DNA of 64,000 nucleotides from an uncultured Pseudomonadales bacterium. GTDB lineage: Bacteria; Patescibacteriota; Microgenomatia; UBA1400; PJMF01. The stretch is taken from assembly GCA_964648715.1 (NCBI GenBank), contig CAZYNM010000007.1, positions 1,436-65,435 of the forward strand. The letters are read 5' to 3'. The stretch's first letter is position 1, and the number at the start of each line of letters is the position of its first letter. The position numbers were made by a program, and so were the translations under genes. The notes beneath the pieces were generated by a model. That model had not been told where the DNA came from. It saw nothing but the letters and a program-made list of their open reading frames with translations, and did no database searches. Positions 41,993 to 64,000 of the stretch are shown here, one piece after another.

Positions 41993-42090
41993 ACCGGTAT
42001 TATACCCCTCACCCTTGAACAAGCACAAAAAAACCGCAGGTTGTGCTGGTGCACTTCCTGCGGTTTGATCTATAAAGGCCTGAGATTTCG

Positions 42091-43245
42091 CTAACGCATG
42101 TGAGTCTTGAACTCACGTGCATTTTGGGCCATGCTTAATGGCCGGGCAAATTCTCGAGGTCCGCCCAAAGAGGTTTGTACATAGATGAGGGTCAGTTCCT
42201 GATATGCATGTGCCGAATGCAGCGCCTGAGATACACCGTCTGTGGTGTTTGCCATGTAGACGTTGTAACCCATGCGCGCTGCAGTCTCTGGAATGTGCGC
42301 AGAGCCAGACAACGATCTCTCCTCCGAACAGGAGCCGTAGGCTCCATTGTCCAGAATGATGTGAGTCATGTTGCTAGGTTGGTGGTGGCCGATGGTGACA
42401 AAGTTGCCAAAGTTAGTAAGGCAACTGGCGTCTCCTTCCACAACTACCACTCGTTTCTCTGGTCGCGAAACCGCAAAACCGAGTCCAATGGCGCTGGTAA
42501 GGCCGAAGCCACCAGCGTTATAGAACTGGTTTGGTGTGTGGTGACGCGCGAACAGTGAGCGGCTGATGAGTCCTGTTGACGAAACAAGTCCCACGTCGGG
42601 TGGCGTAGCACCATGAATTGCTGACAGGATGTCGTCGCGTAGAGCGCTTGCACCTGGCACGGTGTAGTCAAGGATGGTGCCATGGCCATGTGAGGCACTC
42701 ACAGGCGCGCATTTTAGCTGGTGGTGAACCCCTTTCTGTTGGGTCCAGCCACGCTTGACCAGAATGACTCCTGGTTTCTGTGTCTTCTGCATGCTTTGCA
42801 GGCATTCCTCGTACACAGTCCCCGCATTTTGCTCGGTCAAGCATGCATGCCACATGCCATAAGCGTTAAGTAGTGGTTCCGTTGCAGCCCCAGTGGCGAG
42901 GTGTTGAGTCGCATTCTCACCTGGAGCACCTCTGTAGGTGACCAGGAATGGGATCTCCATTTGACAGGGGATCAAGAGTGACCCAATGTCATTGGATGCG
43001 ACCAACATGCCACTGTTTTGCATGTACAGGAGCGGACGTTTGCCCGCTAGCCACATGCCTGCTGCGATACCAACTGCTTCTCGCTCATTGAGTCCAGGGA
43101 TGTGCACGGGCATCTGACCCAGTGCATGGATGAAGTGCCGAAGCACTCCACAGGGAACGCCTGATGATCCACTAACATTTGTGCCCCAACTCTTGATGAA
43201 GTGGCCGATGGGCCCTCCTTCAACGTTGATTGTTAGGTCGTTCAT
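42091..43245 (-). CDS. TPP-dependent decarboxylase, fused ComD/ComE-type (sulfopyruvate / phosphonopyruvate decarboxylase-like)
   Basis: ~385 aa. N-terminal Pyr-domain half and C-terminal PP-domain half with VVVVEGDASCLTNFGNFVTIG (GDG-like TPP/Mg motif ...N). The size and fused architecture match Ppd/ComDE. Start at MNDLTI. Confidence 0.65.
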   Translation of the reverse strand: MNDLTINVEGGPIGHFIKSWGTNVSGSSGVPCGVLRHFIHALGQMPVHIPGLNEREAVGIAAGMWLAGKRPLLYMQNSGMLVASNDIGSLLIPCQMEIPFLVTYRGAPGENATQHLATGAATEPLLNAYGMWHACLTEQNAGTVYEECLQSMQKTQKPGVILVKRGWTQQKGVHHQLKCAPVSASHGHGTILDYTVPGASALRDDILSAIHGATPPDVGLVSSTGLISRSLFARHHTPNQFYNAGGFGLTSAIGLGFAVSRPEKRVVVVEGDASCLTNFGNFVTIGHHQPSNMTHIILDNGAYGSCSEERSLSGSAHIPETAARMGYNVYMANTTDGVSQALHSAHAYQELTLIYVQTSLGGPREFARPLSMAQNAREFKTHMR

Positions 43246-43259
43246 ATGCCACCTCTTTC

Positions 43260-44333
43260 TTAGATTGGATTGTGAATGGACTGCCCTGCGTACTCGCTGT
43301 ACCACGGGCTGCGGTAGTTATCGTAACCCAATGGTCGTAGCGATGAAGCAAAAATGCCCTCTACGATCGTGCGGGCCTGCAAGTAGTAATCCAGCTCTTG
43401 TGCTGCTGGGTCACGCAGTGCTGCGTGATGCGGAAGATACACTTGTAAAAGATTCAGGAGTGGATGCCGGGTCAGTACGGGCAAAAAGCGAGGAAAGTGC
43501 TCTGCAATAGCCTCAAGGCAATCAAGCCCGAGGATGTAGAGCAGGTTTGTTTGCAACCCCCGCTCTTTAGCGTGACTCAGAATTTCCAAGTGCTTGTCCA
43601 GATGAACGCTAGATTTTTTGCGCTTCATCAGGTTGTCTCGCCGCTCGAAGCATTCGACTGTGTTGTAAAGTGCAAAGCGGCCTGCATTTGCCAACCGGTT
43701 GACTGCATCTAGCGTGTTAATCTGTGAGCCGATGTAGCGAATCTCTCCACTAAATCCGAGTCCGCCAAACACACGTTGGATCATCAGTAAGTGGTTGAGG
43801 CAGTCTGCATCGGTGCGGAAGCACCCGGTGACGACGCCGATACTTTCCATGTCTACGTAGCTTGGAACCAGGCCAGTGTCCAGAAAGCCTTGGGCCGCGG
43901 CGCGCATGTTCTGTTCTTCAAGTAAGTTGGAAAAATCCAGTGGTACCAAACTGCTGGTGCCACAGAACTTGCAGCCTCGGCAGGTGCTGCGGCTGTTGCT
44001 GTTGAGCGTCAAGGCTTTGCCACCCTTGCGGATATAGGTTTCTGCGCAGGTGTCGGGATGGACTGGGTCGGCTGGACCGATATACTCGCCAGCCAGCCAA
44101 ACATCTTTCCCATCGTGCAGGAAGGGAGATTCCTGGTCGATGGTCACCGCGAAAAAGTACGACCACCCACTGAGCTGAGGTGTGAGTTTGAACCGCCCTC
44201 GGTTGGTTACCGAGGTGTCAAAGCCAACCGTGCTAGTGCCCATCATATTCAACCCCATCATTAAGATGTCGATGAGGGGAACGTTATACTTATCTGCGAA
44301 CTGCTGTGCTTGTTGGATTGAACGGAAAAACAT
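43260..44333 (-). CDS. Fe-S / radical-SAM-like protein with non-canonical CX2CX2C motif
   Basis: NSRSTCRGCKFCGTS: the position of the usual first Cys of CX3CX2C is Thr, with an adjacent Cys instead. No other recognisable domain. The start is uncertain (MFFRS overlaps the upstream gene by 44 nt; MMGLNMMG is an alternative). Confidence 0.4.
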   Translation of the reverse strand: MFFRSIQQAQQFADKYNVPLIDILMMGLNMMGTSTVGFDTSVTNRGRFKLTPQLSGWSYFFAVTIDQESPFLHDGKDVWLAGEYIGPADPVHPDTCAETYIRKGGKALTLNSNSRSTCRGCKFCGTSSLVPLDFSNLLEEQNMRAAAQGFLDTGLVPSYVDMESIGVVTGCFRTDADCLNHLLMIQRVFGGLGFSGEIRYIGSQINTLDAVNRLANAGRFALYNTVECFERRDNLMKRKKSSVHLDKHLEILSHAKERGLQTNLLYILGLDCLEAIAEHFPRFLPVLTRHPLLNLLQVYLPHHAALRDPAAQELDYYLQARTIVEGIFASSLRPLGYDNYRSPWYSEYAGQSIHNPI

Positions 44334-44916
44334 AGTGTTGCTCCTTCCCTCTTTGAGGGATGAATGAAAATGCGCCCTGTTGGGCAAAAGTTGACAACAT
44401 TTCTTCCAACACTTTTTTGTATGGCTTGTCATAGTCAAAGCCATAGCTCAAAGCGCTGGTGAGCCAGAGAACGAGTTGTAGCTGTGTGACTGCTCCTTCT
44501 GACTTCTGAGTCTGCAGTATCTGCACCGCAAGGACAGTTTTGCCTGTCCTGTTAGCGCCCGCACTGCAGTGAATATAGGCAGTCCCTTCTAGTGAAACGA
44601 TGTGTTGAGCAGCAGTGATGAACGATGGCGCATCCTGTACAGTGAGTACGTGATGCTGCATGGTACTTGCCACTGCTTGACGAAGTGCTGCTACCCGCTG
44701 GCTCTCACCAGGGGCATCTGACTGTAGGGTTACTAGGTGGGTGACACCGTAGTGCGCTTGCAGTCTATTCAGTTGTTGAGGAGTTGGCCATCCTCCACGA
44801 TACATATGAGCTGACACTATCCCAAAGTTTTTGGGGACGTGTTGGTCATCCCAAGTCGCTCGAGGAGGAAGCATGATATGCAGTGAGTGATTGGCGATGT
44901 CGATTGTGAGTTGCAT
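44290..44916 (-). CDS. Protein tyrosine / dual-specificity phosphatase-like (CX5R)
   Basis: YIHCSAGANRTGK = HCxAGxxRTG P-loop of PTP-fold phosphatases. Start at MQLTIDI. Confidence 0.7.
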   Translation of the reverse strand: MQLTIDIANHSLHIMLPPRATWDDQHVPKNFGIVSAHMYRGGWPTPQQLNRLQAHYGVTHLVTLQSDAPGESQRVAALRQAVASTMQHHVLTVQDAPSFITAAQHIVSLEGTAYIHCSAGANRTGKTVLAVQILQTQKSEGAVTQLQLVLWLTSALSYGFDYDKPYKKVLEEMLSTFAQQGAFSFIPQRGKEQHYVFPFNPTSTAVRR

Positions 44917-48850: not shown

Positions 48851-49189
48851 TTATTCGATAATTGATTGAGGATATAAAGCACATGCTTGATTTTGAAGTG
48901 CCTTAATATTCGCTTTATTTAACTTAGGTTGATATTTGTAAATAATGGGTATAACTAGCTTATTTACTCCTGAGTTCTCTACAGTTTCCATACATCTAAT
49001 AGATTTACTGAAGATTGTTTTGCCTATATTACAACTTATTTCTATTGAGGGCATGGTTCCGTTCCTTAGCTGTTCCCTCATTCCATCTTGCGCATCCAGG
49101 TAGCAATGACTTAGAGAAGCTTCAGTAGTTTTATAGGTAATACCTAACCCAACTAGCAAAATGATAGTTATTACAAAAAGTATTTTCAT
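48851..49189 (-). CDS. Small secreted Cys-containing protein (112 aa)
   Basis: Signal peptide MKILFVITIILLVGLGITY...; 4 Cys; lies between remnants R1 and R2. Confidence 0.45.
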   Translation of the reverse strand: MKILFVITIILLVGLGITYKTTEASLSHCYLDAQDGMREQLRNGTMPSIEISCNIGKTIFSKSIRCMETVENSGVNKLVIPIIYKYQPKLNKANIKALQNQACALYPQSIIE

Positions 49190-55670: not shown

Positions 55671-55717
55671 CGAGAAAGAATATAGAATCTCCAGAGGAAA
55701 TCAAAATATGTGAGCCA
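55671..55717 (+). repeat. 47-bp direct repeat copy B (spans 3' flank and last 7 nt of tRNA-Lys)
   Basis: CGAGAAAGAATATAGAATCTCCAGAGGAAATCAAAATATGTGAGCCA; see copy A. Confidence 0.65.
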
Positions 55718-55784
55718 GCTGGGACTCGAACCCAGGACACTTTGCTTAAGAGGCAAATGCTCTAACCAACTGAGCTACTGGCCC
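55711..55784 (-). tRNA. tRNA-Lys(CTT)
   Basis: Minus strand: GGGCCAG-TA-GCTC-AGTTGGTTA-GAGC-A-TTTGC-CTCTTAA-GCAAA-GTGTC-CTGGG-TTCGAGT-CCCAG-CTGGCTC-A. 74 nt, no CCA. Confidence 0.85.
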
Positions 55785-55878
55785 TCACACGAACTAGTAT
55801 TATACCTCAAGATTACATTGAGAGCGAACACTTATTTCACTTTCTTGCAGTCTAGTCAAGATTGAGTAATACTGAAGT

Positions 55879-57063
55879 ATGTCAGCTGTACATGAAGTAG
55901 CTCAACAGACACATGAACACGTACCCTCTCCTCTGGCTTTCAGTTACCCCATAGATGCATTTTTGCACCAGACCATACAGAACCTGGGAAAACAATTGGA
56001 AATAAACCCAGATGCGTTGGGTTGTCAAAACGTCTCATTTTGTCGTGGGGCTGTAAACTACATCCTCAAAGAAATCAAACAGGGCCCTGAGTTTTTTGAA
56101 GTGACTGCAGAACTGGAAAGTTTGGCAGGCGAGCTGGGAAACACGCCAGCAGCTCTTCGTTTTTTCTATTCTTTAGAATTGTATATTTACTATCAGCACG
56201 AGGTGGTGCGACATACAGAAAATAGAATATGTGAATTTTTACAAGTACTTACCTTTGCTGAGTTGAGCTTACTGGGTCCACTTTTGAGTGAGTTCCTGAC
56301 AGATGTCCCAACTCAAGAGGCAGATAAAAGATATTCTTTTTTACGGGATTTTTTTGCCAATGACTCTGCAGATTTCACAGCAACACTTGATGGGCTACAG
56401 ATGAAAAAGAATGAATACATTTTCCTACTTAATACACCACTCTTCACTGCGTTTCTTAAACCGCTTACTCGTCTACAGCCTGCCTTTGCGTATGAACTTG
56501 CACAGATTGTAAATGGATGTCAGGACGTTCACCTGAGAGAAGAAACTGAAAAAGCACTTATGCCAGTTGAGACACATTGGCGGATAAAACTCACACCTTC
56601 ACATGATGACTGGTATTTGTGTGAGCGGAGCGAAGAAAAGTTGGTAGATACACTCTCAGAACAAGGATGTCTAGCGCTGCTAGATGCAGCACAACGACCA
56701 CTTATTGTGGTTAAATTTAAAGGTAAACCATCTGGACTGGTACTACAAACATGTAAAACTGCTGATGGAACTGTGTTACCTGCAGGTACCTGGATTTCTC
56801 CTGTCAGTGCTCAAACTCGAGAACGTTTATACAAGGCATTTGACACAAACTATCAAAAAGTGAGTACACCAGTTTTCCATGGCACTTGGGCGTATATGCG
56901 TAGTGTAGTCCCAGACCGTCTGGAACAGAATGGAGCGCTCCTTACACTTACTAATATAGCGACTCAGCTACAGAGAAGAAGTGCCTATATTGGCCAGCAC
57001 CCTCGTTTCTCTCCAGACAGACAAGCATACCGTCTCAGATATAAAGAAGAAATGGGTGCTTAA
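55879..57063 (+). CDS. Hypothetical protein (394 aa)
   Basis: Long ORF between tRNA-Lys and tRNA-Arg; no recognisable motif. Confidence 0.45.
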   Translation: MSAVHEVAQQTHEHVPSPLAFSYPIDAFLHQTIQNLGKQLEINPDALGCQNVSFCRGAVNYILKEIKQGPEFFEVTAELESLAGELGNTPAALRFFYSLELYIYYQHEVVRHTENRICEFLQVLTFAELSLLGPLLSEFLTDVPTQEADKRYSFLRDFFANDSADFTATLDGLQMKKNEYIFLLNTPLFTAFLKPLTRLQPAFAYELAQIVNGCQDVHLREETEKALMPVETHWRIKLTPSHDDWYLCERSEEKLVDTLSEQGCLALLDAAQRPLIVVKFKGKPSGLVLQTCKTADGTVLPAGTWISPVSAQTRERLYKAFDTNYQKVSTPVFHGTWAYMRSVVPDRLEQNGALLTLTNIATQLQRRSAYIGQHPRFSPDRQAYRLRYKEEMGA

Positions 57064-57073
57064 GGTGACTCGG

Positions 57074-57147
57074 TGCACCCAGAGGGAATTGAACCCCCAA
57101 CCTTCTGTTCCGAAGACAGACGCTCTATCCAATTGAGCTATGGGTGC
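57074..57147 (-). tRNA. tRNA-Arg(TCG)
   Basis: Minus strand: GCACCCA-TA-GCTC-AATTGGATA-GAGC-G-TCTGT-CTTCGGA-ACAGA-AGGTT-GGGGG-TTCAATT-CCCTC-TGGGTGC-A. 74 nt. Confidence 0.8.
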
Positions 57148-57214
57148 GCACCGCTATTATACCTCAAAAAGTCCTCTTTTATTCCCTTCATCCAGTGCTA
57201 CAATACTTGAGAAG

Positions 57215-57901
57215 ATGGCAGCACGATATTACGATTTGGTTAATAAAGCATTACACTGGGGAACATTGCGCGAGTATTTACGAGAAAAGTTTGGTCTCAC
57301 TGAAGATTCTTTTATTAGTCCGTTTATCACTGTGGCCCGTGAGCCAGGAAGTGGTGGCGCCCCCATTGCACAAGCAGTTGCTCAAAAATTAGGCTTTGAG
57401 TATGTTGATGAACAAATTGTGGATGAAATTGCACGCTCCACCAAGCGTCGCAGAGCAATCATACAAGAAATAGATGAAAAAAGTCGATCACGTATTGAAG
57501 ATATTGTGCATTCTTTGGTTAATCTCGAGTATATTGATGAAGAGACATATATTTCTGAGCTAGTCAAAGTTATCCTGAGTTATGCACATAAAGGGAAGTG
57601 TGTTATTTTAGGCAGGGGTGCCAACTTTATCACTCCTTTCGCCAAAGGGTTGCATGTAAGTATCACTGCTCCATATGAGATTCGTGTGCAGAGAGCTATG
57701 CACTACGAGGGTTTATCTGAATCCCAAGCCAAGGAAGTCATCGCGAAGGTTGAAGAAGAACGTGACGAGTTTGCTCGTCAATACTTTAGAAGAAGCTTGA
57801 AGCATCGCAATGTCTTTGATATGACAATAAACACTACGTACTTTAATGTTCCTCAGTCAAGTCAAATTATTTGTGAAGCGTTTAAACAGAAGTTCCCATA
57901 A
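57215..57901 (+). CDS. Cytidylate-kinase-like family protein (PF13189-like P-loop protein)
   Basis: ITVAREPGSGGAPIAQAVAQKLGFEYVD is a CMPK-like P-loop. Start at MAARYY; the longer listed ORF overlaps tRNA-Arg. Confidence 0.65.
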   Translation: MAARYYDLVNKALHWGTLREYLREKFGLTEDSFISPFITVAREPGSGGAPIAQAVAQKLGFEYVDEQIVDEIARSTKRRRAIIQEIDEKSRSRIEDIVHSLVNLEYIDEETYISELVKVILSYAHKGKCVILGRGANFITPFAKGLHVSITAPYEIRVQRAMHYEGLSESQAKEVIAKVEEERDEFARQYFRRSLKHRNVFDMTINTTYFNVPQSSQIICEAFKQKFP

Positions 57902-57920
57902 TCTTTCCGTATAATTTTCA

Positions 57921-57939
57921 TTTTTTTTGCGGTACAATA
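57921..57939 (+). promoter_or_regulatory. Candidate tRNA promoter: T-tract + GCGG + TACAAT (-10-like)
   Basis: TTTTTTTTGCGGTACAATA, 12 nt upstream of tRNA-Leu(CAG). Near-identical to the motif at 58057. Confidence 0.45.
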
Positions 57940-57950
57940 CCCCCTGTGTT

Positions 57951-58037
57951 GCCGAAGTGGCGAAACTGGTAGACGCGCACGCTTCAGGAGCGTGTGGGTT
58001 CACCCCCATGGAGGTTCGAGTCCTCTCTTCGGCACCA
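57951..58037 (+). tRNA. tRNA-Leu(CAG)
   Basis: GCCGAAG...CACGC-TTCAGGA-GCGTG, long variable arm, GGAGG-TTCGAGT-CCTCT, CTTCGGC-A-CCA (CCA encoded). 87 nt. Confidence 0.85.
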
Positions 58038-58056
58038 GAGATCTTTGAAACAACTC

Positions 58057-58075
58057 TTTTTTTTGCGGTATAATA
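58057..58075 (+). promoter_or_regulatory. Candidate tRNA promoter: T-tract + GCGG + TATAAT
   Basis: TTTTTTTTGCGGTATAATA, 14 nt upstream of tRNA-Leu(GAG). Confidence 0.5.
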
Positions 58076-58088
58076 AGCATGAAAATAT

Positions 58089-58169
58089 GCCCGGGTGGTG
58101 AAATGGTATACACGTACGCTTGAGGTGCGTATGCCGAAAGGTGTGGAGGTTCAAGTCCTCTCCCGGGCA
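58089..58169 (+). tRNA. tRNA-Leu(GAG)
   Basis: GCCCGGG...TACGC-TTGAGGT-GCGTA, variable arm TGCCGAAAGGTGT, GGAGG-TTCAAGT-CCTCT, CCCGGGC-A. 81 nt. Confidence 0.8.
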
Positions 58170-58193
58170 CTTAAATACTCTGTATGGCTATGC

Positions 58194-58267
58194 GGACGCT
58201 TAGCTCAGTTGGTTAGAGCACTGCGTTTACATCGCAGGTGTCGGGGGTTCGAGTCCCTCAGCGTCCA
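58194..58267 (+). tRNA. tRNA-Val(TAC)
   Basis: GGACGCT-TA-GCTC-AGTTGGTTA-GAGC-A-CTGCG-TTTACAT-CGCAG-GTGTC-GGGGG-TTCGAGT-CCCTC-AGCGTCC-A. 74 nt. Confidence 0.85.
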
Positions 58268-58282
58268 CTTCTTGGGCTAGCA

Positions 58283-59593
58283 ATGAAACAGTTTGTCTTT
58301 TGTATAGCACTATTTTTTTTGGGGAGCTTCTTCTTTCATTACATAGTCACTGGACAAGCCGTCTATGGCGACGGAGTTGGATACTACGCCTATCTCCACA
58401 GTTGGTACTTTGACCATGACTGGGATTCCACCAACGAATACAAACACATCTATACTCCAGAAAATAATAACGCGCTACAGCCGCACTCTGCAGCTGAAGT
58501 GCAGATTGTCCATACGACCCAGAGTGGCCGAGCACTAAACCATTTTAGTCCAGGGACAGCAGTGTTGCTTTTACCTTGGTACGTACTCGCCGACGTTATA
58601 GTACAGCTGCTGCCAGATAGTCTGCAGGTGGCACGATCTGGTTATGGTGATATCTACCAGATAAGCGTTGGGGTGGGAGCAGTGGTTTTTTTGGGTATGT
58701 CGGTGTGGTTGGTGATGCGTGTTCTTAAGCTCATTAGCGTACCACCATTCCTTTCATATTTGACTGTGCTTTTTATGTACCTGTGTACCCCACTGGTCTA
58801 TTATGGTGGGTTTGACGTTATCAATTCGCATGCTATCTCGGCATTATGTGCAGCTACTACGTTATATATATATACCGCTCTGCCACATACTCTCAAAAAA
58901 GTCTTGGTACTGGGATTGGTGGTAGGCTATGCAGCGAGTGTGCGAATTCAAGATGTATTCCTCGGTATCTTCGTTATTGCTGAAATCTATACTGCTGCGC
59001 CAAAATGGCAACGCACACTAGTCCTGTATGTGACTGCCATGGGTGCACTACTTGTTGGCATGCTTCCGCTCCTTCTCCAGCTAACTGTGGGTATTTCATT
59101 GGTGGAACATACCTACACACAGGAGCTGGTTCGCTGGTTTGCGGCTCCTACTCTGGCAGGTTTTTGGGGAAGTCTCTTGAATAGCGATACGGGTTTATTA
59201 GCAAGAACACCAGCCCTAGTTCCCTTTTGTATATTCCTGGTCGTTGCATTCAAAACAAAAAAAATTCCTTCTCGCTGGTATCCTTCTCTCATGTTTGCTG
59301 TTGCCCAATATGTGATTATCAGCATGCAAGGCGGCTGGGTTGCTGCTGCCTTTGGTGGGCGAATGTACATCTCTAGTTTGATTGTGCTTACCCCTCTTGC
59401 TGCAGAGTTTGTCTCTATGGTGCGCACACGTTTTGGAATACAAGCAGTGACTGCCTTTGTGACGGTGTGTATTGTGGGTACTCTTGCGTCAGTGGGACAG
59501 TTTGTGCTGGTACGTAAAGCAACTGAGAATGGCACTATGGGAACTGAAGCCCGGACAGTTCAGCGCCTACAAAACTTCCTTAGGAAACAATAA
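58283..59593 (+). CDS. Polytopic membrane protein (GT-C-like / unknown), 436 aa
   Basis: Start MKQFVFCIALFFLG; more than 10 hydrophobic helices. The listed ORF start overlaps tRNA-Val. Confidence 0.5.
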   Translation: MKQFVFCIALFFLGSFFFHYIVTGQAVYGDGVGYYAYLHSWYFDHDWDSTNEYKHIYTPENNNALQPHSAAEVQIVHTTQSGRALNHFSPGTAVLLLPWYVLADVIVQLLPDSLQVARSGYGDIYQISVGVGAVVFLGMSVWLVMRVLKLISVPPFLSYLTVLFMYLCTPLVYYGGFDVINSHAISALCAATTLYIYTALPHTLKKVLVLGLVVGYAASVRIQDVFLGIFVIAEIYTAAPKWQRTLVLYVTAMGALLVGMLPLLLQLTVGISLVEHTYTQELVRWFAAPTLAGFWGSLLNSDTGLLARTPALVPFCIFLVVAFKTKKIPSRWYPSLMFAVAQYVIISMQGGWVAAAFGGRMYISSLIVLTPLAAEFVSMVRTRFGIQAVTAFVTVCIVGTLASVGQFVLVRKATENGTMGTEARTVQRLQNFLRKQ

Positions 59594-59667
59594 TCTGGCT
59601 ACATTCCCCACTGGGAAGTGAAAGAGAAGATGATATAATTTGGGGGTTAGTAATGGTCTGTGCACTT

Positions 59668-59740
59668 GCCAAGCTAGCCAAGGTGGTCACGGCGCGTGTC
59701 TGAAAAACACGAGATTGAGGTTCGACTCCTCAGCTTGGCA
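59668..59740 (+). tRNA. tRNA-Phe(GAA)
   Basis: GCCAAGC-TA-GCC...-CGTGT-CTGAAAA-ACACG-AGAT-TGAGG-TTCGACT-CCTCA-GCTTGGC-A. 73 nt. Confidence 0.8.
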
Positions 59741-59786
59741 CAATCGTAGTACAATATGGACTGCAGCTCCTTAACCCAGGAGAAGT

Positions 59787-59859
59787 GCGGAAATAGCTCA
59801 GTTGGTAGAGCGTCTCCTTGCCAAGGAGAAGGTCGCGGGTCCGAGTCCCGTTTTCCGCT
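59787..59859 (+). tRNA. tRNA-Gly(GCC)
   Basis: GCGGAAA-TA-GCTC-AGTTGGTA-GAGC-G-TCTCC-TTGCCAA-GGAGA-AGGTC-GCGGG-TCCGAGT-CCCGT-TTTCCGC-T. 73 nt. Confidence 0.85.
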
Positions 59860-59884
59860 CATTTTTTCTACTCTGTTTGAGATC

Positions 59885-60214
59885 TCAAAGATATAAGCTT
59901 TCACTGGGTAATGCAACTTTGTCTGCAGCACATTCTTCGTTGTGTGTTTGGATAAGGAGTGTCACTTTATTTTGAATACCCAATGGTGCATACATCATGC
60001 CTGCTATAAATCCCTGTTTCTGTACGGTAACTATACAGCTGCGGAGTTCCAGATAAATATCTTTTTTAGTTTTGCATGATTCTTCAAGAGAAAGTGCTTT
60101 TGCTGCCTCTGCAGTAGCTAAACAGTAGGTGTAGTTGTCTTTAGCTCTGCCTACTGTAGTGCTGTACAACACAAAGGCGCCAATACAAATACATGCAAGT
60201 AAGATCATTTTCAT
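59885..60214 (-). CDS. Small secreted protein (109 aa)
   Basis: Signal peptide MKMILLACICIGAFVLYSTTVGRA; several Cys. Confidence 0.4.
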   Translation of the reverse strand: MKMILLACICIGAFVLYSTTVGRAKDNYTYCLATAEAAKALSLEESCKTKKDIYLELRSCIVTVQKQGFIAGMMYAPLGIQNKVTLLIQTHNEECAADKVALPSESLYL

Positions 60215-60235
60215 GTATACTCACTATACCACACG

Positions 60236-60622
60236 ATGTTACACGATTTTTTTAGAAAGTTTGCCACTGGCGTTTCAATCCTTTTAGGATCACCTATTGC
60301 CTTTGTTTCTGCAACAGTTGTCCTAGGTGCTTGGTTATGTGCAGGGCCTTTTTTTAACTTTTCAGATACGTGGCAACTTGCCATCAATACAGTAACCACA
60401 ATTATTACTTTCCTGATGGTTTTCCTGATTCAAAATACACAAAATAGAGATACCAAGGCTATCCATCTTAAATTAGATGAATTGCTGCGGTCTGGGAAAG
60501 ATGCTCGCAATTCTTTGATAGAAGTAGAGTCACTTTCTGATAAAGAGCTTGAACTACTGCATGCGGAGTTTGAGGCGCTCCATGATAAAGCCGAAAAAGA
60601 GCTACACAAGCGTCGCCTGTGA
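60236..60622 (+). CDS. Low-affinity iron permease-like (PF04120-like) small membrane protein
   Basis: ...FSDTWQLAINTVTTIITFLMVFLIQNTQNRDTKAIHLKLDELLR... fits the bacterial Fet4-like ~130-aa family pattern. Confidence 0.55.
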   Translation: MLHDFFRKFATGVSILLGSPIAFVSATVVLGAWLCAGPFFNFSDTWQLAINTVTTIITFLMVFLIQNTQNRDTKAIHLKLDELLRSGKDARNSLIEVESLSDKELELLHAEFEALHDKAEKELHKRRL

Positions 60623-61183
60623 GTAATCATGTAGCCAAGAAATAAGTGTTTTTTTGGTGAGTAACGTTATTGCATGTTTCCGCAGTGAAGCACGCAGTGA
60701 CACTGGAGTGTCATGAAGGATTGCTATCCAAACATTCGTAGCGCCCAGTTCTCGAGCTGACTTAACGAGGCTTTGGGGTATTACATCCAACTGTGCAGAA
60801 TCATCAATAATAAAACGAAAGAGCGTTTTTCTATCTTGTACTCGTGCCTCAATATCGATGTAATGTGGAGTTACAAGTTGCACACACACCTGAGAAAATT
60901 GGTGAGCGCAGACCTTCATTAGATAGCGGGCTTGTGCAGGTGCTGGTAATAGTTGTAATTCAGTATATGTGTATGAGCGTCGCTGTAGATTTTTTTGAAC
61001 AATATACAGGATTGCGCAACAGGTGAGTGCCCCACAAATTTCAAGTAGCACCTGCCCACGTTCAGTGCGCGTAGTGACTGGAGTTACCTCTAGAAGTGGA
61101 ACAAGAAAACTGATGCCTACCATGCTACACACAACACACAGAAATGGTGTGAATTGAGATGCGCTAAAATGACGCACTGTCAT
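60602..61183 (-). CDS. Hypothetical membrane-anchored protein (193 aa)
   Basis: N-terminal TM; starts immediately 3' of tRNA-Gln on the same strand. Confidence 0.4.
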   Translation of the reverse strand: MTVRHFSASQFTPFLCVVCSMVGISFLVPLLEVTPVTTRTERGQVLLEICGALTCCAILYIVQKNLQRRSYTYTELQLLPAPAQARYLMKVCAHQFSQVCVQLVTPHYIDIEARVQDRKTLFRFIIDDSAQLDVIPQSLVKSARELGATNVWIAILHDTPVSLRASLRKHAITLLTKKTLISWLHDYSQATLV

Positions 61184-61184
61184 G

Positions 61185-61255
61185 ATGCCCCGTTTGGATT
61201 CGAACCAAAATAAACAGCTTCAAAGGCTGCTGTCCTGCCATTAGACCACGGGGCA
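61185..61255 (-). tRNA. tRNA-Gln(TTG)
   Basis: Minus strand: TGCCCCG-TG-GTCT-AATGGCA-GGAC-A-GCAGC-CTTTGAA-GCTGT-TTAT-TTTGG-TTCGAAT-CCAAA-CGGGGCA-T. U1-A72 pair as in many bacterial tRNA-Gln. 71 nt. Confidence 0.7.
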
Positions 61256-61340: not shown

Positions 61341-61856
61341 ATGTCAAGAAAATATACCGCTAAGCTTATGAAAGCTGCAGTTTTAGGTGCAAATGACGGG
61401 ATTATCACTACATTTGCAGTGGTAGCTGGAGTGGTTGGAGCCGGTTTGAGTGTGCAAACAATTATTATTTTGGGAATTGCCAACATGGTCGCAGATGGCA
61501 TTAGTATGTCAGTAGGAGATTTTTTAGGTGAACGTTCGGCAGCACGTATTGAACATGGAAAGGTCCCCAGTGAAATTTGGCATACAAGTCTGATAACATT
61601 CATAGCTTTTGTATTGGCTGGTGGCTTACCTCTTTTACCGTATGTGCTTGAGTTGGTGATTACTGTTCCTGGGAGCTTACCCCAATTTGAACTTTCGGTA
61701 GCGAGTACCTTGATATCGCTGTTTATAGTGGGTAGTTTACGTTCTCTGGTTGATGGTGGTAACTGGTTCCGCAATGGACTCGAAATGTTAGGTATTGGCT
61801 CAATTGCAGCCGCAGTTGCATACGGCTTGGGTGCATTTATAGAGCGGCTTGTCTGA
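61341..61856 (+). CDS. VIT1/CCC1-family (vacuolar iron transporter-like) membrane protein, short form
   Basis: VLGANDGIITTFAVVAGVVGAG is the canonical VIT-family motif. Confidence 0.7.
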   Translation: MSRKYTAKLMKAAVLGANDGIITTFAVVAGVVGAGLSVQTIIILGIANMVADGISMSVGDFLGERSAARIEHGKVPSEIWHTSLITFIAFVLAGGLPLLPYVLELVITVPGSLPQFELSVASTLISLFIVGSLRSLVDGGNWFRNGLEMLGIGSIAAAVAYGLGAFIERLV

Positions 61857-63378
61857 GCTTTATTTGAGCAAGTATCCGGTTAATATGGCCAATTTGTTGT
61901 GGACCTTCATAAATCATGCCAGTAATCATCTGAATAAGATCTGCCCCAGCCGCAAGCTTAGCTTGTGCATCTTCGGGGGAAAAAACGCCGCCAGTACCAA
62001 CTATCACAAATCGATCTTTAAAGTGTGTGCGAGTTAACTTAATTCCCCGTAGTGAACTAGCTGCAGTGGGTTTCCCACTCACATTCCCCTTTCTTGTTTT
62101 CCAGATAGCTCTGTCATCTGAATGCACAGCGGGATTTTCTTTATTTTTGGTAAGGTTGCCAAAAATAACACCTGCTACTGTGTGCACATCACAGACTGTA
62201 AGTAACTGCAGTGTTTCTTCATCCGATTGATCAATAGGCATTTTTACAAAAACTGGACGTGATACCTCAAGCTTATCCAGAGCCCGCAATAAAATTTCTA
62301 GCCGTTGTGGTGTAGTAAATGGCTCACCACCAAAAGTGTTTGGACAACTAATATTAAGTTCATAGTACGAGTGCGAAAGTGGCCCAGATTCAAAGAGTTT
62401 AAAACATGCAAGGATATCCATGATTTGAGCTTTTGTGTTTGCAAAATGCGTATTGGTACTGGCAATGCTAATGCCAACGGGTTGTAGGAACCGTACACCC
62501 TTGAGGCGTGTTATGATTGTTTCGGCACCGGCAGACTTGAGTCCTTTATTTACTAATAGTGCATGAGACCGTGAAAAACGGTCAAGACGTGGTGGTGTAT
62601 TTCCTGCATAGCATTGGCGAGTCACTGTACCAATGGTGTGCCAGCCAAAACCAAGAGCATGTGTAGCATGCGGAAGATGACCATCATAATCAAATCCAGC
62701 AGCAAGCCCAATGGGATTGTCAAAATGTATACCTGCTTTGAATATGTGCAGAGATGGGTGCTCGTATCTCCAAACAAACTGTAAGAACCACCGACCAACA
62801 CCGGACTCCCCTATCTTTTCCCCAAAAAGCGTAAACCAGTTGTGCACTGTCTCTGCAGAAAATAAGAACAATAGTGGTTTTAACAACCGTGTATAGAGAA
62901 AATGAGTAATGCTATGGGTGAATGCCTTCCATACACCATTGGACTCCGGTACGTACCTGTGTATGTAGAGTTGGGTGATCACACATAAGAGACTGGAGGT
63001 GCTAGCTGATATAAGACAGTACACACACCATGCTTGCAACAGGATCGCCATAATGAAAACAAGGTAGAGAGAAAAGCCAAATCCACCGATGGTAACAATA
63101 GTGAGAAAAGTGATTGCCTTGTAACGAAGTGCTTTTTGTTCAAGTTGCAGAACATGCCAAATCGCTAAGGAACATACCAGAAGATAGTACAGCAGCCCGA
63201 ACACTGAAAGTGGTATACCAAACAGTGACGCATAGGGACTGGAAAGTACTGCTTCACATTGAAACCCTGACGTACACGGAGGGATAATTCCCGTATATTT
63301 TTCATATGTGAGATATCCGGCGTCGGCAATACCAACCAATGACAGTACAACGAGACACAATGAAAGCATCAGCTGCAT
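61837..63378 (-). CDS. pyrD: Fusion protein: N-terminal VKOR (vitamin K epoxide reductase-like) membrane domain + class-2-type dihydroorotate dehydrogenase
   Basis: VKOR loop Cys pair PPCTSGFQCEAV and TM CXXC AWCVYCLIS in the first ~150 aa. Then a class-2 DHODH N-terminal extension (YTRLLKPLLFLFSAETVHN ~ E. coli YPFVRKALFQLDPERAHE) and core motifs NPIGLAAGFDYDG, GTVT, PRL, NISCPNT, VIVGTGGV. Confidence 0.75.
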   Translation of the reverse strand: MQLMLSLCLVVLSLVGIADAGYLTYEKYTGIIPPCTSGFQCEAVLSSPYASLFGIPLSVFGLLYYLLVCSLAIWHVLQLEQKALRYKAITFLTIVTIGGFGFSLYLVFIMAILLQAWCVYCLISASTSSLLCVITQLYIHRYVPESNGVWKAFTHSITHFLYTRLLKPLLFLFSAETVHNWFTLFGEKIGESGVGRWFLQFVWRYEHPSLHIFKAGIHFDNPIGLAAGFDYDGHLPHATHALGFGWHTIGTVTRQCYAGNTPPRLDRFSRSHALLVNKGLKSAGAETIITRLKGVRFLQPVGISIASTNTHFANTKAQIMDILACFKLFESGPLSHSYYELNISCPNTFGGEPFTTPQRLEILLRALDKLEVSRPVFVKMPIDQSDEETLQLLTVCDVHTVAGVIFGNLTKNKENPAVHSDDRAIWKTRKGNVSGKPTAASSLRGIKLTRTHFKDRFVIVGTGGVFSPEDAQAKLAAGADLIQMITGMIYEGPQQIGHINRILAQIKLRQAAL

Positions 63379-63390
63379 AGTGATAGTATC

Positions 63391-64000
63391 CTAACCCTGT
63401 TGTGGGGTTAGAACAAGATAGAGGTTGGCGTCACTATTTTTACCATCAGCAGTAAAGCTTTGATGTACTTCCCAGCCAGTTTGTTGAGCAAGATCTAGTG
63501 CTTCTTGATTTGTAAAACTATGACAGTATCGAGGGTATGTTGTTATTCCTTTCCAGCCCAAAAGGGTATCTCCTGGTTCAAGCTCACCGGGATCGATCCC
63601 GTGATCCTCAAGCTTGGCGAGTGGCGTGCGCTCGCTGAGGTGCTTGCCAAACTGCCAAAAGCTCAGGATGACTAGAGTGGTATGTGTTGCATGGGCGCGC
63701 AAGCTGCTCAGGAGTGCTTTCCTTAAGTTTTGAGAGGGAATGTGATGCATAAGCCCAAATGCTGCTACTACCGCAAAAGCACGATGCAATTCTTGAGGTA
63801 AGTCTTGACTGGTTATAAGTGAGTCCAGGATATCAAGCTGCATAAACTGTGGATTGATATGCTGATAGCTCTGTTTTTTTGCTTGAAGTAAAAGGCTTGT
63901 GGAACTATCAATACCAAGGTAGTCTGGTGCAAATGGAGCAGGAGTAGAAAGCTGATCGAGAAAAACAGCAAAACGTCCATTTCCACAGCCAATATCAAGA
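63391..64000 (-). CDS. Class I SAM-dependent methyltransferase, partial (N-terminus beyond window end)
   Basis: Reading in frame upstream of the listed MQLDILD ORF gives ...LDIGCGNGRFAVFLDQLSTPAPFAPDYLGIDSS... (motif I) with no stop before the window end. Confidence 0.65.
   Translation of the reverse strand, partial: LDIGCGNGRFAVFLDQLSTPAPFAPDYLGIDSSTSLLLQAKKQSYQHINPQFMQLDILDSLITSQDLPQELHRAFAVVAAFGLMHHIPSQNLRKALLSSLRAHATHTTLVILSFWQFGKHLSERTPLAKLEDHGIDPGELEPGDTLLGWKGITTYPRYCHSFTNQEALDLAQQTGWEVHQSFTADGKNSDANLYLVLTPQQG

What the first reader, a model, noticed from the sequence alone, without database searches (positions are those of the whole stretch)
61837..63378. VKOR-domain fused to class-2-type dihydroorotate dehydrogenase with Cys instead of Ser at the catalytic base position
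The N-terminal ~150 aa carry the VKOR hallmark cysteines (loop CX6C and TM CXXC). They are fused in frame to a DHODH that has the class-2 N-terminal extension, yet NISCPNT (Cys) where class 2 enzymes have Ser (NISSPNT) and class 1 have Cys.

Class-2 DHODHs hand electrons to membrane quinone, and VKOR is a quinone-dependent disulfide-generating module. The fusion therefore suggests direct coupling of pyrimidine biosynthesis to a VKOR-bound quinone or to disulfide-bond formation. That would be notable in a lineage that may lack quinone biosynthesis.
Basis: partly seen in the sequence, partly recalled or inferred. Interest (0 to 1): 0.6.

Follow-up and report, generated by a model that had tools for sequence, protein, structure and literature searches.

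The report
VKOR–dihydroorotate dehydrogenase fusion enzyme in CPR bacteria
This gene really encodes one membrane protein that joins a disulfide-bond-generating VKOR module (facing outside) to a pyrimidine-pathway flavoenzyme (facing inside); the pairing is ancient and widespread in ultra-small CPR bacteria that lack respiration, and it may show how such cells dispose of electrons from these two normally quinone-dependent reactions.

Summary
ORF 61837-63378 (-) encodes 513 aa: a complete VKOR module (PF07884, E=1.4e-24) followed after five residues by a class-2-type DHODH (PF01180, E=1.2e-44) with NISCPN instead of NISSPN.

It is not an artefact. All 120 closest database proteins have both domains. 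In 82 related genomic loci plus the window, 56 are fused, 6 have a separate but adjacent or clustered VKOR gene, and 21 have no VKOR nearby.

All five VKOR catalytic residues are invariant in 61/61 modules. Charge distribution places them outside the cell and the DHODH inside.

Cys is the norm for class-2-like DHODHs of CPR bacteria and DPANN-labelled archaea, fused or not (about 135 of 150 and 119 of 120 in two samples). It has a published precedent in respiration-independent fungal enzymes.

Exported proteins in these lineages show a strong even-cysteine bias, so VKOR probably runs in its normal oxidative direction.

Best model: two intact modules share a scavenged quinone, and the final electron sink is unidentified. 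Direction of coupling remains inferred. I found no paper describing the fusion.

The parts
61837..63378 (-). Whole gene: VKOR-DHODH fusion protein, 513 aa plus stop codon
   Evidence: ORF; two Pfam domains; 100% identical protein on record (P0001); AlphaFold2 pLDDT 94.6, pTM 0.89
62953..63378 (-). VKOR module, residues 1-142: four TM helices (2-29, 57-76, 88-114, 119-142)
   Evidence: PF07884 E=1.4e-24; alignment to 4nv6/3kp9; helices from the model; charge bias supports N-in/C-in topology
63256..63276 (-). Loop cysteine pair C35-x5-C41 (CTSGFQC), predicted extracytoplasmic
   Evidence: Translation; invariant 61/61 and 120/120; aligns with C50/C56 of Synechococcus VKOR
63238..63240 (-). S47, the conserved VKOR serine (VLSS)
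   Evidence: Invariant 61/61; identical VLSS in 4nv6
63016..63027 (-). Redox CxxC (C118-V-Y-C121) at the outer end of TM4
   Evidence: Translation; invariant 61/61; aligns with C130xxC133 of 4nv6
62773..62952 (-). Five-residue linker (143-147) plus the class-2 N-terminal helical 'quinone tunnel' domain (helices 148-170, 175-191, 193-202), including H179
   Evidence: Secondary structure and pLDDT above 90; H179 equals E. coli H19 and is 82/82 conserved; Foldseek alignment covers the N-terminal domain of E. coli and Mtb DHODH
61840..62772 (-). DHODH FMN-binding barrel, residues 203-513
   Evidence: PF01180 E=1.2e-44; PDB hits 8ofw 6e-37 and 1f76 2e-31
62338..62355 (-). Catalytic loop NISCPN; C345 (62344-62346) sits at the position of the class-2 catalytic Ser
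   Evidence: Cys in 82/82 clade members
62686..62688 (-). Y231, replacing the FMN/orotate-binding Lys of canonical enzymes (E. coli K66; GLDKDG becomes GFDYDG)
   Evidence: Unambiguous local alignment; Tyr in 82/82 of this sub-clade, Lys in other CPR/DPANN Cys-type enzymes
62578..62580 (-). R267, equivalent to the E. coli R102 tunnel arginine
   Evidence: 82/82 conserved
61924..61926 (-). I485, replacing the tunnel Tyr (E. coli Y318 / human Y356)
   Evidence: Ile in 80/82
63391..64000 (-). Upstream co-directional class-I methyltransferase (runs off the window end; its stop is 12 nt before the fusion ATG). Syntenic neighbour, probably unrelated in function
   Evidence: conserved in 19 loci; only weak generic hits (UbiG 36 bits against a cutoff of 103); next to an Elp3-type tRNA-modification gene in relatives

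Best explanation
The gene encodes a bifunctional membrane redox enzyme of CPR (Patescibacteria) bacteria.

Shown:
- A complete four-helix VKOR module has its catalytic cysteines on the outer face of the membrane.
- It is joined by a rigid five-residue linker to a cytoplasmic, FMN-type, class-2-derived DHODH.
- The DHODH keeps the membrane-facing acceptor tunnel (His179, Arg267) but has Cys345 as catalytic base.
- The pairing is ancient and is maintained as a fusion or as neighbouring genes.
- These lineages carry the sequence signature of extracytoplasmic disulfide formation.

Inferred:
- The VKOR module works in its normal direction. It oxidises a DsbA-like partner outside the cell and reduces a membrane quinone.
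- The DHODH oxidises dihydroorotate inside the cell, and its tunnel addresses the same quinone.
- The quinone is probably scavenged, because published CPR genome surveys report no quinone biosynthesis genes.
- The fusion lets two quinone-dependent reactions share one scarce cofactor, one membrane site, one regulation and one downstream sink.

The final electron sink is not identified. Candidates are quinol oxidation (O2, or a cyo-type oxidase where present) and a soluble acceptor at the Cys-type flavin site (fumarate, flavin or flavodoxin), as proposed for Cys-type fungal enzymes.
For: - Both domains are intact and significant.
- The model is confident as one body: pLDDT 94.6, pTM 0.89, linker pLDDT above 90.
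- All 120 nearest proteins are fusions with all five cysteines.
- In 61 VKOR modules, including the most distant fused lineages and six separate genes, C35, C41, S47, C118 and C121 are 61/61 conserved. Charges support N-in/C-in topology: loop 2 net +1.95, post-TM4 +0.75, Cys loop -0.23.
- Across 82 loci plus the window, 56 are fused, 6 linked but separate and 21 unlinked.
- The separate forms include an ATGA stop/start overlap (L027), a 35-nt overlap (L076), an intervening tRNA-Gly (L037) and operon-like clusters in three different gene orders (L023, L026, L028).
- Tunnel residues His19 and Arg102 (E. coli numbering) and the FMN/substrate residues N172, N177, K217 and N246 are 82/82 conserved.
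- Exported-like proteins have even cysteine counts in 46 of 61 families, against 127 of 302 for cytoplasmic-like proteins. This indicates active oxidative folding, and hence a forward-running VKOR.
- Literature: sampled CPR genomes lack quinone biosynthesis genes, yet some carry ubiquinol oxidase operons (PMC8407418). VKOR in Clostridia that cannot make quinones is proposed to use scavenged quinones (PMC12453122). Cys-type class-II DHODs work independently of respiration (PMC8520639).
Against: - Both modules would reduce quinone, so the model needs an unidentified quinol or flavin oxidant in organisms reported to lack most of a respiratory chain.
- By my own rough estimate, the pyrimidine flux would far exceed the disulfide flux. 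That could keep a shared quinone reduced and starve the VKOR.
- Parallel use of a cofactor does not by itself explain why physical fusion is selected.
- Quinone use is untested. The tunnel Tyr (E. coli Y318) is Ile and the FMN-side Lys (K66) is Tyr in this clade, so the acceptor site is remodelled.
- 21 relatives have no VKOR within 10 kb.
- No DsbA- or thioredoxin-like partner and no pyr genes were found near the gene.
- Whether a second VKOR or DsbB exists in these genomes is unknown.
Confidence: 0.5

Rival explanations
1. Series chain with DHODH as the terminal reductase. Electrons from exported thiols pass through VKOR to one captive quinone. From there they go through the DHODH tunnel to its FMN, and on to a soluble acceptor bound at the Cys-containing active site (fumarate as in class-1A enzymes, a flavodoxin or free flavin, O2, or even orotate). 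The two-module protein would then be a self-contained equivalent of the E. coli anaerobic route DsbB, menaquinone, fumarate reductase.
For: - This is the only arrangement in which a forward-running VKOR and the DHODH are complementary, one making quinol and the other consuming it. That would explain selection for fusion or tight linkage.
- Cys is the proton donor or acceptor typical of fumarate-using class-1A enzymes. Cys-type fungal class-II enzymes use non-quinone acceptors, and fumarase mutations improved one of them (PMC8520639).
- A flavodoxin gene overlaps the DHODH start in L023 and sits in the VKOR operon in L026 and L028.
- No other pyr genes were found in about 1.3 Mb of sampled DNA. 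This would fit a non-biosynthetic role.
Against: - Quinol-to-FMN transfer is about 170-240 mV uphill for published DHOD flavin potentials (-242 to -310 mV, PMC8520639) against menaquinone (about -74 mV, from my own knowledge).
- Whenever DHO reduces the flavin, the flavin would reduce the quinone in turn.
- No acceptor has been identified.
- K66 is Lys in class-1A enzymes but Tyr here.
- The pyr-gene absence comes from a biased sample.
Confidence: 0.2
2. Reductive export (closest to the first reader's idea). DHO reduces FMN, FMN reduces the quinone, and the quinol reduces the VKOR CxxC. The loop cysteines then reduce an extracytoplasmic disulfide. VKOR would run backwards as the electron outlet that lets DHODH work without a respiratory chain.
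For: - Overall the reaction is downhill: DHO/orotate about -258 mV against DsbA-type disulfides about -120 mV (own knowledge).
- The two modules would be complementary.
- It needs only a catalytic amount of quinone.
- It explains conservation of all VKOR cysteines and the tight linkage.
Against: - The even-cysteine bias of exported proteins shows that these cells keep structural disulfides outside. A high-flux thiol-generating outlet would work against that.
- The menaquinol-to-disulfide step is uphill.
- To my knowledge, no VKOR or DsbB is known to run in reverse physiologically.
- No reducing thioredoxin-like partner was found nearby.
Confidence: 0.15
3. No redox coupling. The VKOR module and the DHODH act independently, and the fusion serves only to anchor a monotopic enzyme in the membrane, or results from gene compaction in a reduced genome.
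For: - A different polytopic membrane module (PAP2) is fused in the same position in one lineage.
- Eukaryotic class-2 DHODHs also carry an N-terminal membrane anchor (own knowledge).
- Unfused clade members have only amphipathic N-termini.
- Most neighbouring genes show only lineage synteny.
Against: - The PAP2 fusion is narrow and recent (9 clusters, at least 80% identical). The VKOR association spans sequences down to about 34-40% identity and several CPR groups.
- Where the genes are unfused, VKOR still sits beside DHODH in five different arrangements. An anchor role does not explain that.
Confidence: 0.08
4. The C-terminal domain is no longer a dihydroorotate dehydrogenase. It would be a class-2-derived flavoenzyme acting on another substrate.
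For: - It scores below every curated class-2 equivalog cutoff (253 against 448; 250 against 267; TIGR01036 182 against 200).
- The active site is remodelled: K66 to Tyr, T247 to Leu, N139 to Ser, S175 to Cys.
- No other pyr genes appear in the sampled DNA.
Against: - The Asn residues and Lys217 that bind orotate and FMN are invariant.
- New invariant or near-invariant lysines (K278, K281) lie in the substrate loop and could replace K66.
- The best matches in every library are DHODHs.
Confidence: 0.05
5. Frameshift or assembly artefact joining two genes.
For: In a few genomes the two parts are separate ORFs (L027, L037, L076).
Against: The frame is uninterrupted here. Hundreds of independent assemblies carry the same fusion. 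The separate forms have proper start and stop signals, or a tRNA gene between them.
Confidence: 0.01

Closest known systems
Bacterial VKOR (Synechococcus VKOR-thioredoxin fusion, PDB 3KP9/4NV6; M. tuberculosis VKOR)
   Same: Same four-helix core. The loop Cys pair, the conserved Ser and the TM4 CxxC all align. The Pfam score is well above threshold. The active site faces outward.
   Different: There is no fifth helix and no periplasmic thioredoxin-like domain. Instead, TM4 runs straight into a cytoplasmic flavoenzyme. The host lineage is reported not to make quinones (PMC8407418). The partner protein is unknown.
Class-2 (quinone-dependent) DHODH, e.g. E. coli PyrD (1F76, 7T5K) and M. tuberculosis (8OFW)
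   Same: Same fold, including the N-terminal helical tunnel domain (TM-score to target 0.89-0.92). His19, Arg102, Asn172, Asn177, Lys217 and Asn246 are conserved. These are the best sequence matches.
   Different: The catalytic Ser is Cys, Lys66 is Tyr, the tunnel Tyr318 is Ile and Thr247 is Leu. It scores below all curated equivalog cutoffs. It is fused to a polytopic membrane protein.
Cys-type class-II DHODs of fungi from anoxic or microaerobic niches (ArUra9, SjUra9, DbUra9; PMC8520639)
   Same: Class-II sequence type with Cys at the catalytic-base position, found in organisms or conditions without respiration. This is the closest functional precedent for the Cys.
   Different: They are eukaryotic and arose independently. 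ArUra9 lost the N-terminal domain and uses free flavins. None is linked to VKOR. In CPR/DPANN the Cys type is the majority form, not a rare exception.
Class-1A DHODH (L. lactis PyrDa, 1DOR)
   Same: Cys as catalytic base; independent of respiration.
   Different: Only distant similarity (E about 1e-6; class-1 NCBIfam model 51 bits against a cutoff of 270). It is soluble, has no N-terminal tunnel domain and retains the Lys that is Tyr here.
E. coli anaerobic disulfide pathway: DsbA, DsbB, menaquinone, fumarate reductase (Bader et al. 1999, listed in the references of PMC12453122; the anaerobic fumarate-reductase step is from my own knowledge)
   Same: It works like the series model: a membrane thiol oxidase hands electrons via a quinone to a flavoenzyme that reduces a soluble acceptor.
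   Different: In E. coli these are separate proteins using a free quinone pool. Here they would be two modules of one polypeptide, and the reductase would be a DHODH. This is entirely inferred.
Giant-virus VKOR redox modules (PMC13486548)
   Same: VKOR is genetically coupled to a non-Dsb enzyme partner, forming a proposed quinone-based redox module.
   Different: The partner is a gamma-carboxylase-like epoxidase/desaturase, and VKOR there is proposed to supply reduced vitamin K. The setting is eukaryotic ER-type membranes.

Membership tests
VKOR family (PF07884) | Profile match above the curated threshold | tested here: met
   87.2 bits against a cutoff of 27.5, E=1.4e-24, profile positions 2-133 of 134
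VKOR family (PF07884) | Four conserved cysteines (loop pair plus TM CxxC) and the conserved Ser/Thr | tested here: met
   C35, C41, S47, C118 and C121 align with the Synechococcus residues and are 61/61 invariant
VKOR family (PF07884) | Four-helix membrane core with the active site on the extracytoplasmic face | tested here: met
   Model helices 2-29, 57-76, 88-114 and 119-142; positive-inside distribution. This is prediction only
VKOR family (PF07884) | Quinone reduction coupled to oxidation of a thioredoxin-fold partner | not testable with these tools
   No partner gene found nearby. Indirect support comes from the even-Cys bias of exported proteins
Class-2 (quinone) DHODH | N-terminal helical domain forming the acceptor tunnel, with the conserved His and Arg | tested here: met
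   Helices 148-202; Foldseek alignment to full-length class-2 structures; H179 and R267 are 82/82 conserved
Class-2 (quinone) DHODH | Serine as catalytic base (N-I/V-S-S-P-N) | tested here: not met
   Cys345; Cys in 82/82 clade members
Class-2 (quinone) DHODH | Score above the curated equivalog cutoffs (NCBIfam PRK05286 models, TIGR01036) | tested here: not met
   Best scores 253 against 448, 250 against 267, and 181.6 against 200
Class-2 (quinone) DHODH | Canonical FMN/orotate Lys (E. coli K66) and tunnel Tyr (Y318) | tested here: not met
   Tyr231 and Ile485; 82/82 and 80/82 respectively
Class-2 (quinone) DHODH | Uses membrane quinone as electron acceptor | not testable with these tools
   Needs an enzyme assay
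Class-1 DHODH (1A/1B) | Cysteine catalytic base | tested here: met
   C345
Class-1 DHODH (1A/1B) | Class-1 sequence type: no N-terminal extension; a PyrK partner for 1B | tested here: not met
   TIGR01037 scores 51 bits against a cutoff of 270; PDB class-1A hits about 1e-6 against 1e-37 for class 2; the N-terminal domain is present; no PyrK-like gene among the recurrent neighbour families within about 6 kb
Cys-type class-II DHOD (as defined for fungi in PMC8520639) | Class-II sequence with Cys at the base position, in a respiration-independent setting | tested here: met
   Sequence features met. The CPR lifestyle is taken from the literature (PMC8407418, PMC7507113). Activity not tested

The most novel reading that the evidence does not exclude
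The two-module protein is a complete, respiration-free disulfide-formation chain. Exported thiols reduce the VKOR, the VKOR reduces one captive scavenged quinone, and the quinone reduces the DHODH flavin. The flavin discharges to a soluble acceptor at the Cys-type active site (fumarate, flavodoxin or flavin, O2, or orotate). If the rest of the pyrimidine pathway is really absent from these genomes, as the sampled 1.3 Mb hints, the 'DHODH' would have been recruited mainly as a terminal reductase rather than as a biosynthetic enzyme.
Probability: 0.2. Interest if true: 0.85.

Novelty: new variant of a known kind. Interest (0 to 1): 0.64.

Why it matters
Two textbook quinone-dependent reactions are oxidative protein folding by VKOR/DsbB and dihydroorotate oxidation by class-2 DHODH. 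Both are found in CPR and DPANN organisms, which are reported to lack most of an electron transport chain and to lack quinone biosynthesis. How either reaction is driven there is an open question, and the same puzzle has been raised for VKOR in Clostridia.

A deep, repeatedly maintained genetic coupling of exactly these two enzymes points to a shared solution. It also supplies a single, compact, expressible protein on which that solution can be tested.

The work also shows that Cys-type class-2-like DHODH is a large natural family typical of respiration-less lineages. This extends the fungal finding that Cys accompanies respiration-independent function. It may matter for annotation too, since these proteins are currently named 'quinone-dependent DHODH', 'VKOR family protein' or 'hypothetical'.

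Tried and rejected
- **Artefact or frameshift:** rejected.
- **Cys as a fusion-specific adaptation:** rejected. Unfused relatives have it too. The first evidence was biased, because one scan pattern contained NISCP. It was therefore re-tested with an unbiased whole-library phmmer search and a second family sample.
- **Upstream methyltransferase as a quinone methyltransferase (UbiE/UbiG/MenG):** rejected. Only weak generic hits far below cutoffs, and it sits beside an Elp3 tRNA-modification gene.
- **Conserved DsbA, thioredoxin or pyr neighbours:** none found by neighbour clustering, by a CxxC scan of the window, or by searches for PyrB, PyrC, PyrE and PyrF (the PyrB and PyrE queries were validated).
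- **N-terminal TM anchors in unfused relatives:** none found; they have only amphipathic helices.
- **PAP2-DHODH as evidence for a general anchor role:** it is a narrow, recent fusion.
- **Crp-like regulator as an O2-sensing FNR:** by eye, the L023 copy has a single Cys and no FNR-type cluster motif.
  - The look-up of encoding contigs has no record for the window protein.
  - The afdb50 fold library was unavailable.
  - Model coordinates are not exposed, so inter-site distances could not be measured.
  - Five targeted literature searches found no description of the fusion or of CPR DHODHs.
- **Own error:** one search had a numbering offset error, corrected.
- **Alignment ambiguity:** the apparent N111-to-Val change is probably a one-residue alignment shift. 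Invariant N277 likely plays that role, so I do not count it.
Full report
**1. Observation**

The ORF lies at 61837..63378 (-) and encodes 513 aa. Pfam finds VKOR (PF07884) at residues 8-135 (E=1.4e-24) and DHO_dh (PF01180) at residues 215-504 (E=1.2e-44).

NCBIfam ranks ten class-2 'quinone-dependent DHODH' models first, at up to 253 bits. Class-1 models reach only 51 bits. Every class-2 score is below its curated cutoff.

Against solved structures, the best hits are M. tuberculosis and E. coli class-2 DHODHs (6e-37 to 2e-31) and, for the N-terminus, the Synechococcus VKOR (4e-9). In those alignments NISCPNT lies over NVSSPNT and NISSPNT. A separate alignment of residues 1-153 puts C35/C41 on C50/C56, matches an identical VLSS, and puts C118xxC121 on C130xxC133.

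**2. Not an artefact, and not rare**

All 120 best hits among 5.8 billion proteins carry both Pfam domains. They are 49-79% identical to the query and come from many independent assemblies. The few that are named are labelled Pacebacteria or Patescibacteria. All 120 have NISCPN, the CxxC and the loop pair.

Full-length matches occur in records labelled Pacebacteria/Paceibacterota, Woesebacteria, Roizmanbacteria, Gottesmanbacteria and Microgenomates. Many 'TPA_asm' records are titled Pseudomonadales or Gammaproteobacteria, but their proteins nest among CPR-labelled sequences. I regard those titles as unreliable.

An AlphaFold2 model built from a 64-sequence alignment has pLDDT 94.6 and pTM 0.89. 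It shows four TM helices (2-29, 57-76, 88-114, 119-142) and a five-residue linker. Three helices of the class-2 N-terminal domain (148-202) follow, and then the barrel. Foldseek aligns about 350 columns to full-length class-2 DHODHs, with a TM-score to target of 0.89-0.92.

**3. Linkage evidence**

I built HMMs of each half from the family alignment and searched all ORFs of the 82 fetched loci plus the window. The result was 56 fused, 6 with a separate VKOR gene nearby, and 21 with no VKOR within the available flanks.

The separate forms are natural:
- L027 has an ATGA stop/start overlap.
- In L076 the DHODH ATG lies 35 nt inside the VKOR gene.
- L037 has a tRNA-Gly(UCC) gene between the two genes.
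- L023, L026 and L028 place VKOR and DHODH in one cluster in three different gene orders.

That cluster also contains an L-lactate dehydrogenase (TIGR01771, 345 bits against a cutoff of 304), a short flavodoxin and a Crp-family regulator. The Crp-like gene is next to DHODH in seven loci, both fused and unfused. LDH is adjacent in five.

A rough NJ tree without support values shows the CPR DHODHs as one clade, far from E. coli and M. tuberculosis, with the three states interleaved. That implies repeated fusion or fission.

The remaining neighbours (Elp3-type radical SAM, methyltransferase, RecQ, MgsA, MazG-like, VIT1, nuclease) look like lineage synteny. Among the recurrent neighbour families I saw no obvious pyr, DsbA or thioredoxin genes, judging from the sequences alone.

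**4. The Cys is a clade trait, not a fusion trait**

All 21 unlinked and 6 separate DHODHs also read NISCPN. That scan was biased toward NISCP, so I repeated the test with an exhaustive phmmer search of 1.84 billion cluster representatives. It returned 10,378 hits at E<=1e-3 and 436 at E<=1e-30.

Of the best 150 representatives, about 135 have Cys. Ser-type sequences appear only at the bottom of the list, at about 33-35% identity.

A second sample around a Peregrinibacteria protein gave 119/120 Cys-type. It included Peregrini-, Gracili-, Davies-, Curtiss- and Woykebacteria, and proteins labelled Pacearchaeota, which is a DPANN group.

Three sub-types are visible, written as base / K66 position / Y318 position:
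- Cys/Lys/Tyr;
- Cys/Lys/Ile, Val or Leu, which is the common CPR/DPANN form;
- Cys/Tyr/Ile, which is this gene's sub-clade, both fused and unfused.

In 82/82 members of this sub-clade, E. coli K66 is Tyr and S175 is Cys. Y318 is Ile in 80/82. H19, R102, N172, N177, K217 and N246 are invariant, and new lysines appear in the substrate loop.

There is a published precedent. Fungal class-II DHODs from anoxic or microaerobic niches have Cys at this position, as do only 3 of the 331 other fungal orthologs. They support anaerobic, respiration-independent pyrimidine synthesis. One uses free FMN/FAD, and the Cys is essential in one case but not in another (PMC8520639).

**5. State and orientation of the VKOR module**

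In 61 modules, including the most divergent lineages and the six free-standing genes, C35, C41, S47, C118 and C121 are invariant. So are G16, D19, V44, G61, Y65, S103, S124 and A125.

Loop 2 and the post-TM4 segment are net positive (+1.95 and +0.75), and the cysteine loop is not (-0.23). This fits N-in/C-in topology. The VKOR active site is therefore outside and the DHODH is in the cytoplasm, attached to the inner end of the same helix (TM4) that carries the CxxC at its outer end.

Direct flavin-to-cysteine transfer is therefore implausible, and a mobile lipophilic carrier is required.

**6. Do these cells make disulfides?**

I ran a Dutton-style test on genes called in the loci. Predicted exported proteins have even cysteine counts in 45 of 58 cases in the fusion loci. 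Across all loci, counting one protein per family, the figure is 46 of 61 (75%, p=9e-5). Cytoplasmic-like proteins are 42% even.

The signal-peptide call is a simple heuristic, so the figures are approximate, but the contrast is large. It argues that an oxidative folding pathway operates. The invariant VKOR is the obvious catalyst.

**7. Pathway context**

No quinone-tailoring gene was found. The conserved upstream methyltransferase has only generic hits and sits beside Elp3.

No PyrB, PyrC, PyrE or PyrF homologue and no OMP-decarboxylase motif occurs in about 1.3 Mb from 82 loci plus the window. The recalled E. coli PyrB and PyrE queries match the PDB sequences over their full length. If the pathway genes were present and randomly placed, about five hits would be expected. 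The sample is biased toward one neighbourhood, so this is a lead and not a result.

Literature:
- Sampled CPR genomes lack most electron-transport-chain genes and lack quinone biosynthesis genes, yet some carry ubiquinol oxidase operons (PMC8407418).
- VKOR in Clostridia that cannot make quinones is called intriguing, and scavenged quinones are proposed (PMC12453122).
- Giant viruses couple VKOR to non-Dsb enzymes (PMC13486548).
- No paper containing 'dihydroorotate' together with 'Candidate Phyla Radiation' exists in the library, and the three with 'Patescibacteria' are irrelevant. None of the VKOR plus DHODH papers concerns a fusion.

**8. Mechanism**

Firm: this is a bifunctional membrane protein with two intact redox modules on opposite membrane faces, and the association is under long-term selection.

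Inferred: the modules communicate through, or at least share, a membrane quinone that the cell must scavenge.

Three directional models remain.

- **(a) Convergent.** VKOR and DHODH both run in the textbook direction and reduce the same quinone, which is drained by an unidentified oxidant. This needs no new chemistry and fits the even-Cys result. It leaves both the sink and the advantage of fusion unexplained.
- **(b) VKOR to quinone to DHODH flavin to a soluble acceptor.** This is complementary and self-contained. It is analogous to the E. coli DsbB, menaquinone, fumarate reductase route, and it fits the Cys and the flavodoxin linkage. It requires an uphill quinol-to-flavin step. By detailed balance I estimate about 1e-3 per second at best. 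By my own rough estimate that could still suffice for an ultra-small, slow-growing cell.
- **(c) DHO to quinone to reversed VKOR to outside disulfides.** This is also complementary. It conflicts with the evidence for stable extracytoplasmic disulfides, because my rough estimate puts the pyrimidine flux several hundred times above the disulfide flux.

I give (a) 0.5 in its broad form (VKOR forward, shared quinone, sink unknown). I give (b) 0.2, (c) 0.15, anchor-only 0.08, changed substrate 0.05 and artefact 0.01.

**9. Comparison and novelty**

Each half belongs to a known superfamily. The VKOR half passes every sequence-level membership test.

The DHODH half is class-2-derived but fails three class-2 criteria: the Ser base, the curated cutoffs, and the K66/Y318 residues. 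It is best described as a Cys-type class-2-like subfamily typical of CPR/DPANN.

The architecture is present in public databases under automatic names such as 'dihydroorotate dehydrogenase (quinone)', 'VKOR family protein', 'hypothetical' and 'DHODH/uncharacterized membrane protein'. I found no description or experiment on it. I rate it a new variant of known kinds, of real interest because it makes the electron-sink problem of respiration-less cells experimentally approachable.

Noticed in passing
L023:7464-11125; L026:9995-13746; L028:7472-11074; also L019:8927-9925 and L020:8304-9959: Where VKOR and DHODH are separate genes, they sit in a cluster with an L-lactate dehydrogenase (TIGR01771 above cutoff), a short flavodoxin and a Crp-family regulator, in three different gene orders. 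In L023 the four genes overlap like an operon and the flavodoxin stop overlaps the DHODH start. LDH is also adjacent to the fused gene in L019 and L020. This may be a redox-balance module.
   Followed up: partly
L020, L023, L026, L028, L059, L061, L065 (next to the DHODH gene): A Crp/cNMP-binding regulator recurs beside DHODH in seven loci, fused and unfused alike. By eye, the L023 copy has a single Cys and no FNR-type iron-sulfur motif. Its ligand is unknown.
   Followed up: partly
L037:10382-10456: A tRNA-Gly(UCC) gene lies exactly between the VKOR gene (stop at 10379-10381) and the DHODH gene (ATG about 10462) in a Woesebacteria genome, where relatives have a continuous fusion.
   Followed up: yes
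P0154 and P0270-P0277 (Peregrinibacteria/Gracilibacteria proteins): A different fusion: a PAP2-family membrane phosphatase N-terminal to a Cys-type DHODH (550 aa). It is restricted to nine clusters that are at least 80% identical. Other odd architectures include P0142 (C-terminal cytidylyltransferase-like domain), P0243 (705 aa) and P0188 (133-residue N-terminal extension of unknown type).
   Followed up: partly
82 loci plus window (about 1.3 Mb): No homologue of PyrB, PyrC, PyrE or PyrF and no OMP-decarboxylase motif anywhere in the sampled DNA, although the PyrB and PyrE queries were validated. The DHODH may be an orphan of the pyrimidine pathway in these genomes. Whole genomes are needed to tell.
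   Followed up: partly
window 62686-62688 (Y231), 61924-61926 (I485) and clade-wide: Beyond the Cys, this sub-clade has Tyr in place of the FMN/orotate Lys (E. coli K66) and Ile in place of the tunnel Tyr (Y318). It also has Leu for T247 and new lysines at 278 and 281. Other CPR/DPANN Cys-type enzymes keep the Lys.
   Followed up: partly
window 4011-9940 (-): A run of five genes alternates ATP-grasp (RimK-like, ATPgrasp_ST) and MATCAP-family peptidase-like proteins. It may be a peptide-ligation and trimming cluster.
   Followed up: no
window 42000-44450: A G+C-rich island (53% against about 44% elsewhere) encodes a TPP-dependent enzyme (PF02775) and a 394-aa protein with no Pfam match that contains a CRGCKFC motif. 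It is flanked by methyltransferase genes and may have been acquired horizontally.
   Followed up: no
window 55711-61255: Eight of the window's nine tRNA genes are concentrated in about 5.5 kb just downstream of the fusion gene's neighbourhood.
   Followed up: no
window 59885-60214 (-) and 48851-49189 (-): Small predicted exported proteins with four cysteines in the mature part. The first is conserved near the fusion gene in five loci. They are plausible disulfide-bonded substrates.
   Followed up: partly
window 61837-61856: The 3' end of the fusion gene overlaps the 3' end of a convergent VIT1-family (iron/manganese transporter) gene by 20 nt. The VIT1 neighbour is conserved in 13 related loci.
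   Followed up: no
L001, L003-L005, L008-L011, L019, L020, L025, L030 and others (record titles): Many TPA_asm MAG records titled 'uncultured Pseudomonadales' or 'Gammaproteobacteria' carry genes that nest among CPR-labelled sequences. The organism labels look wrong.
   Followed up: no
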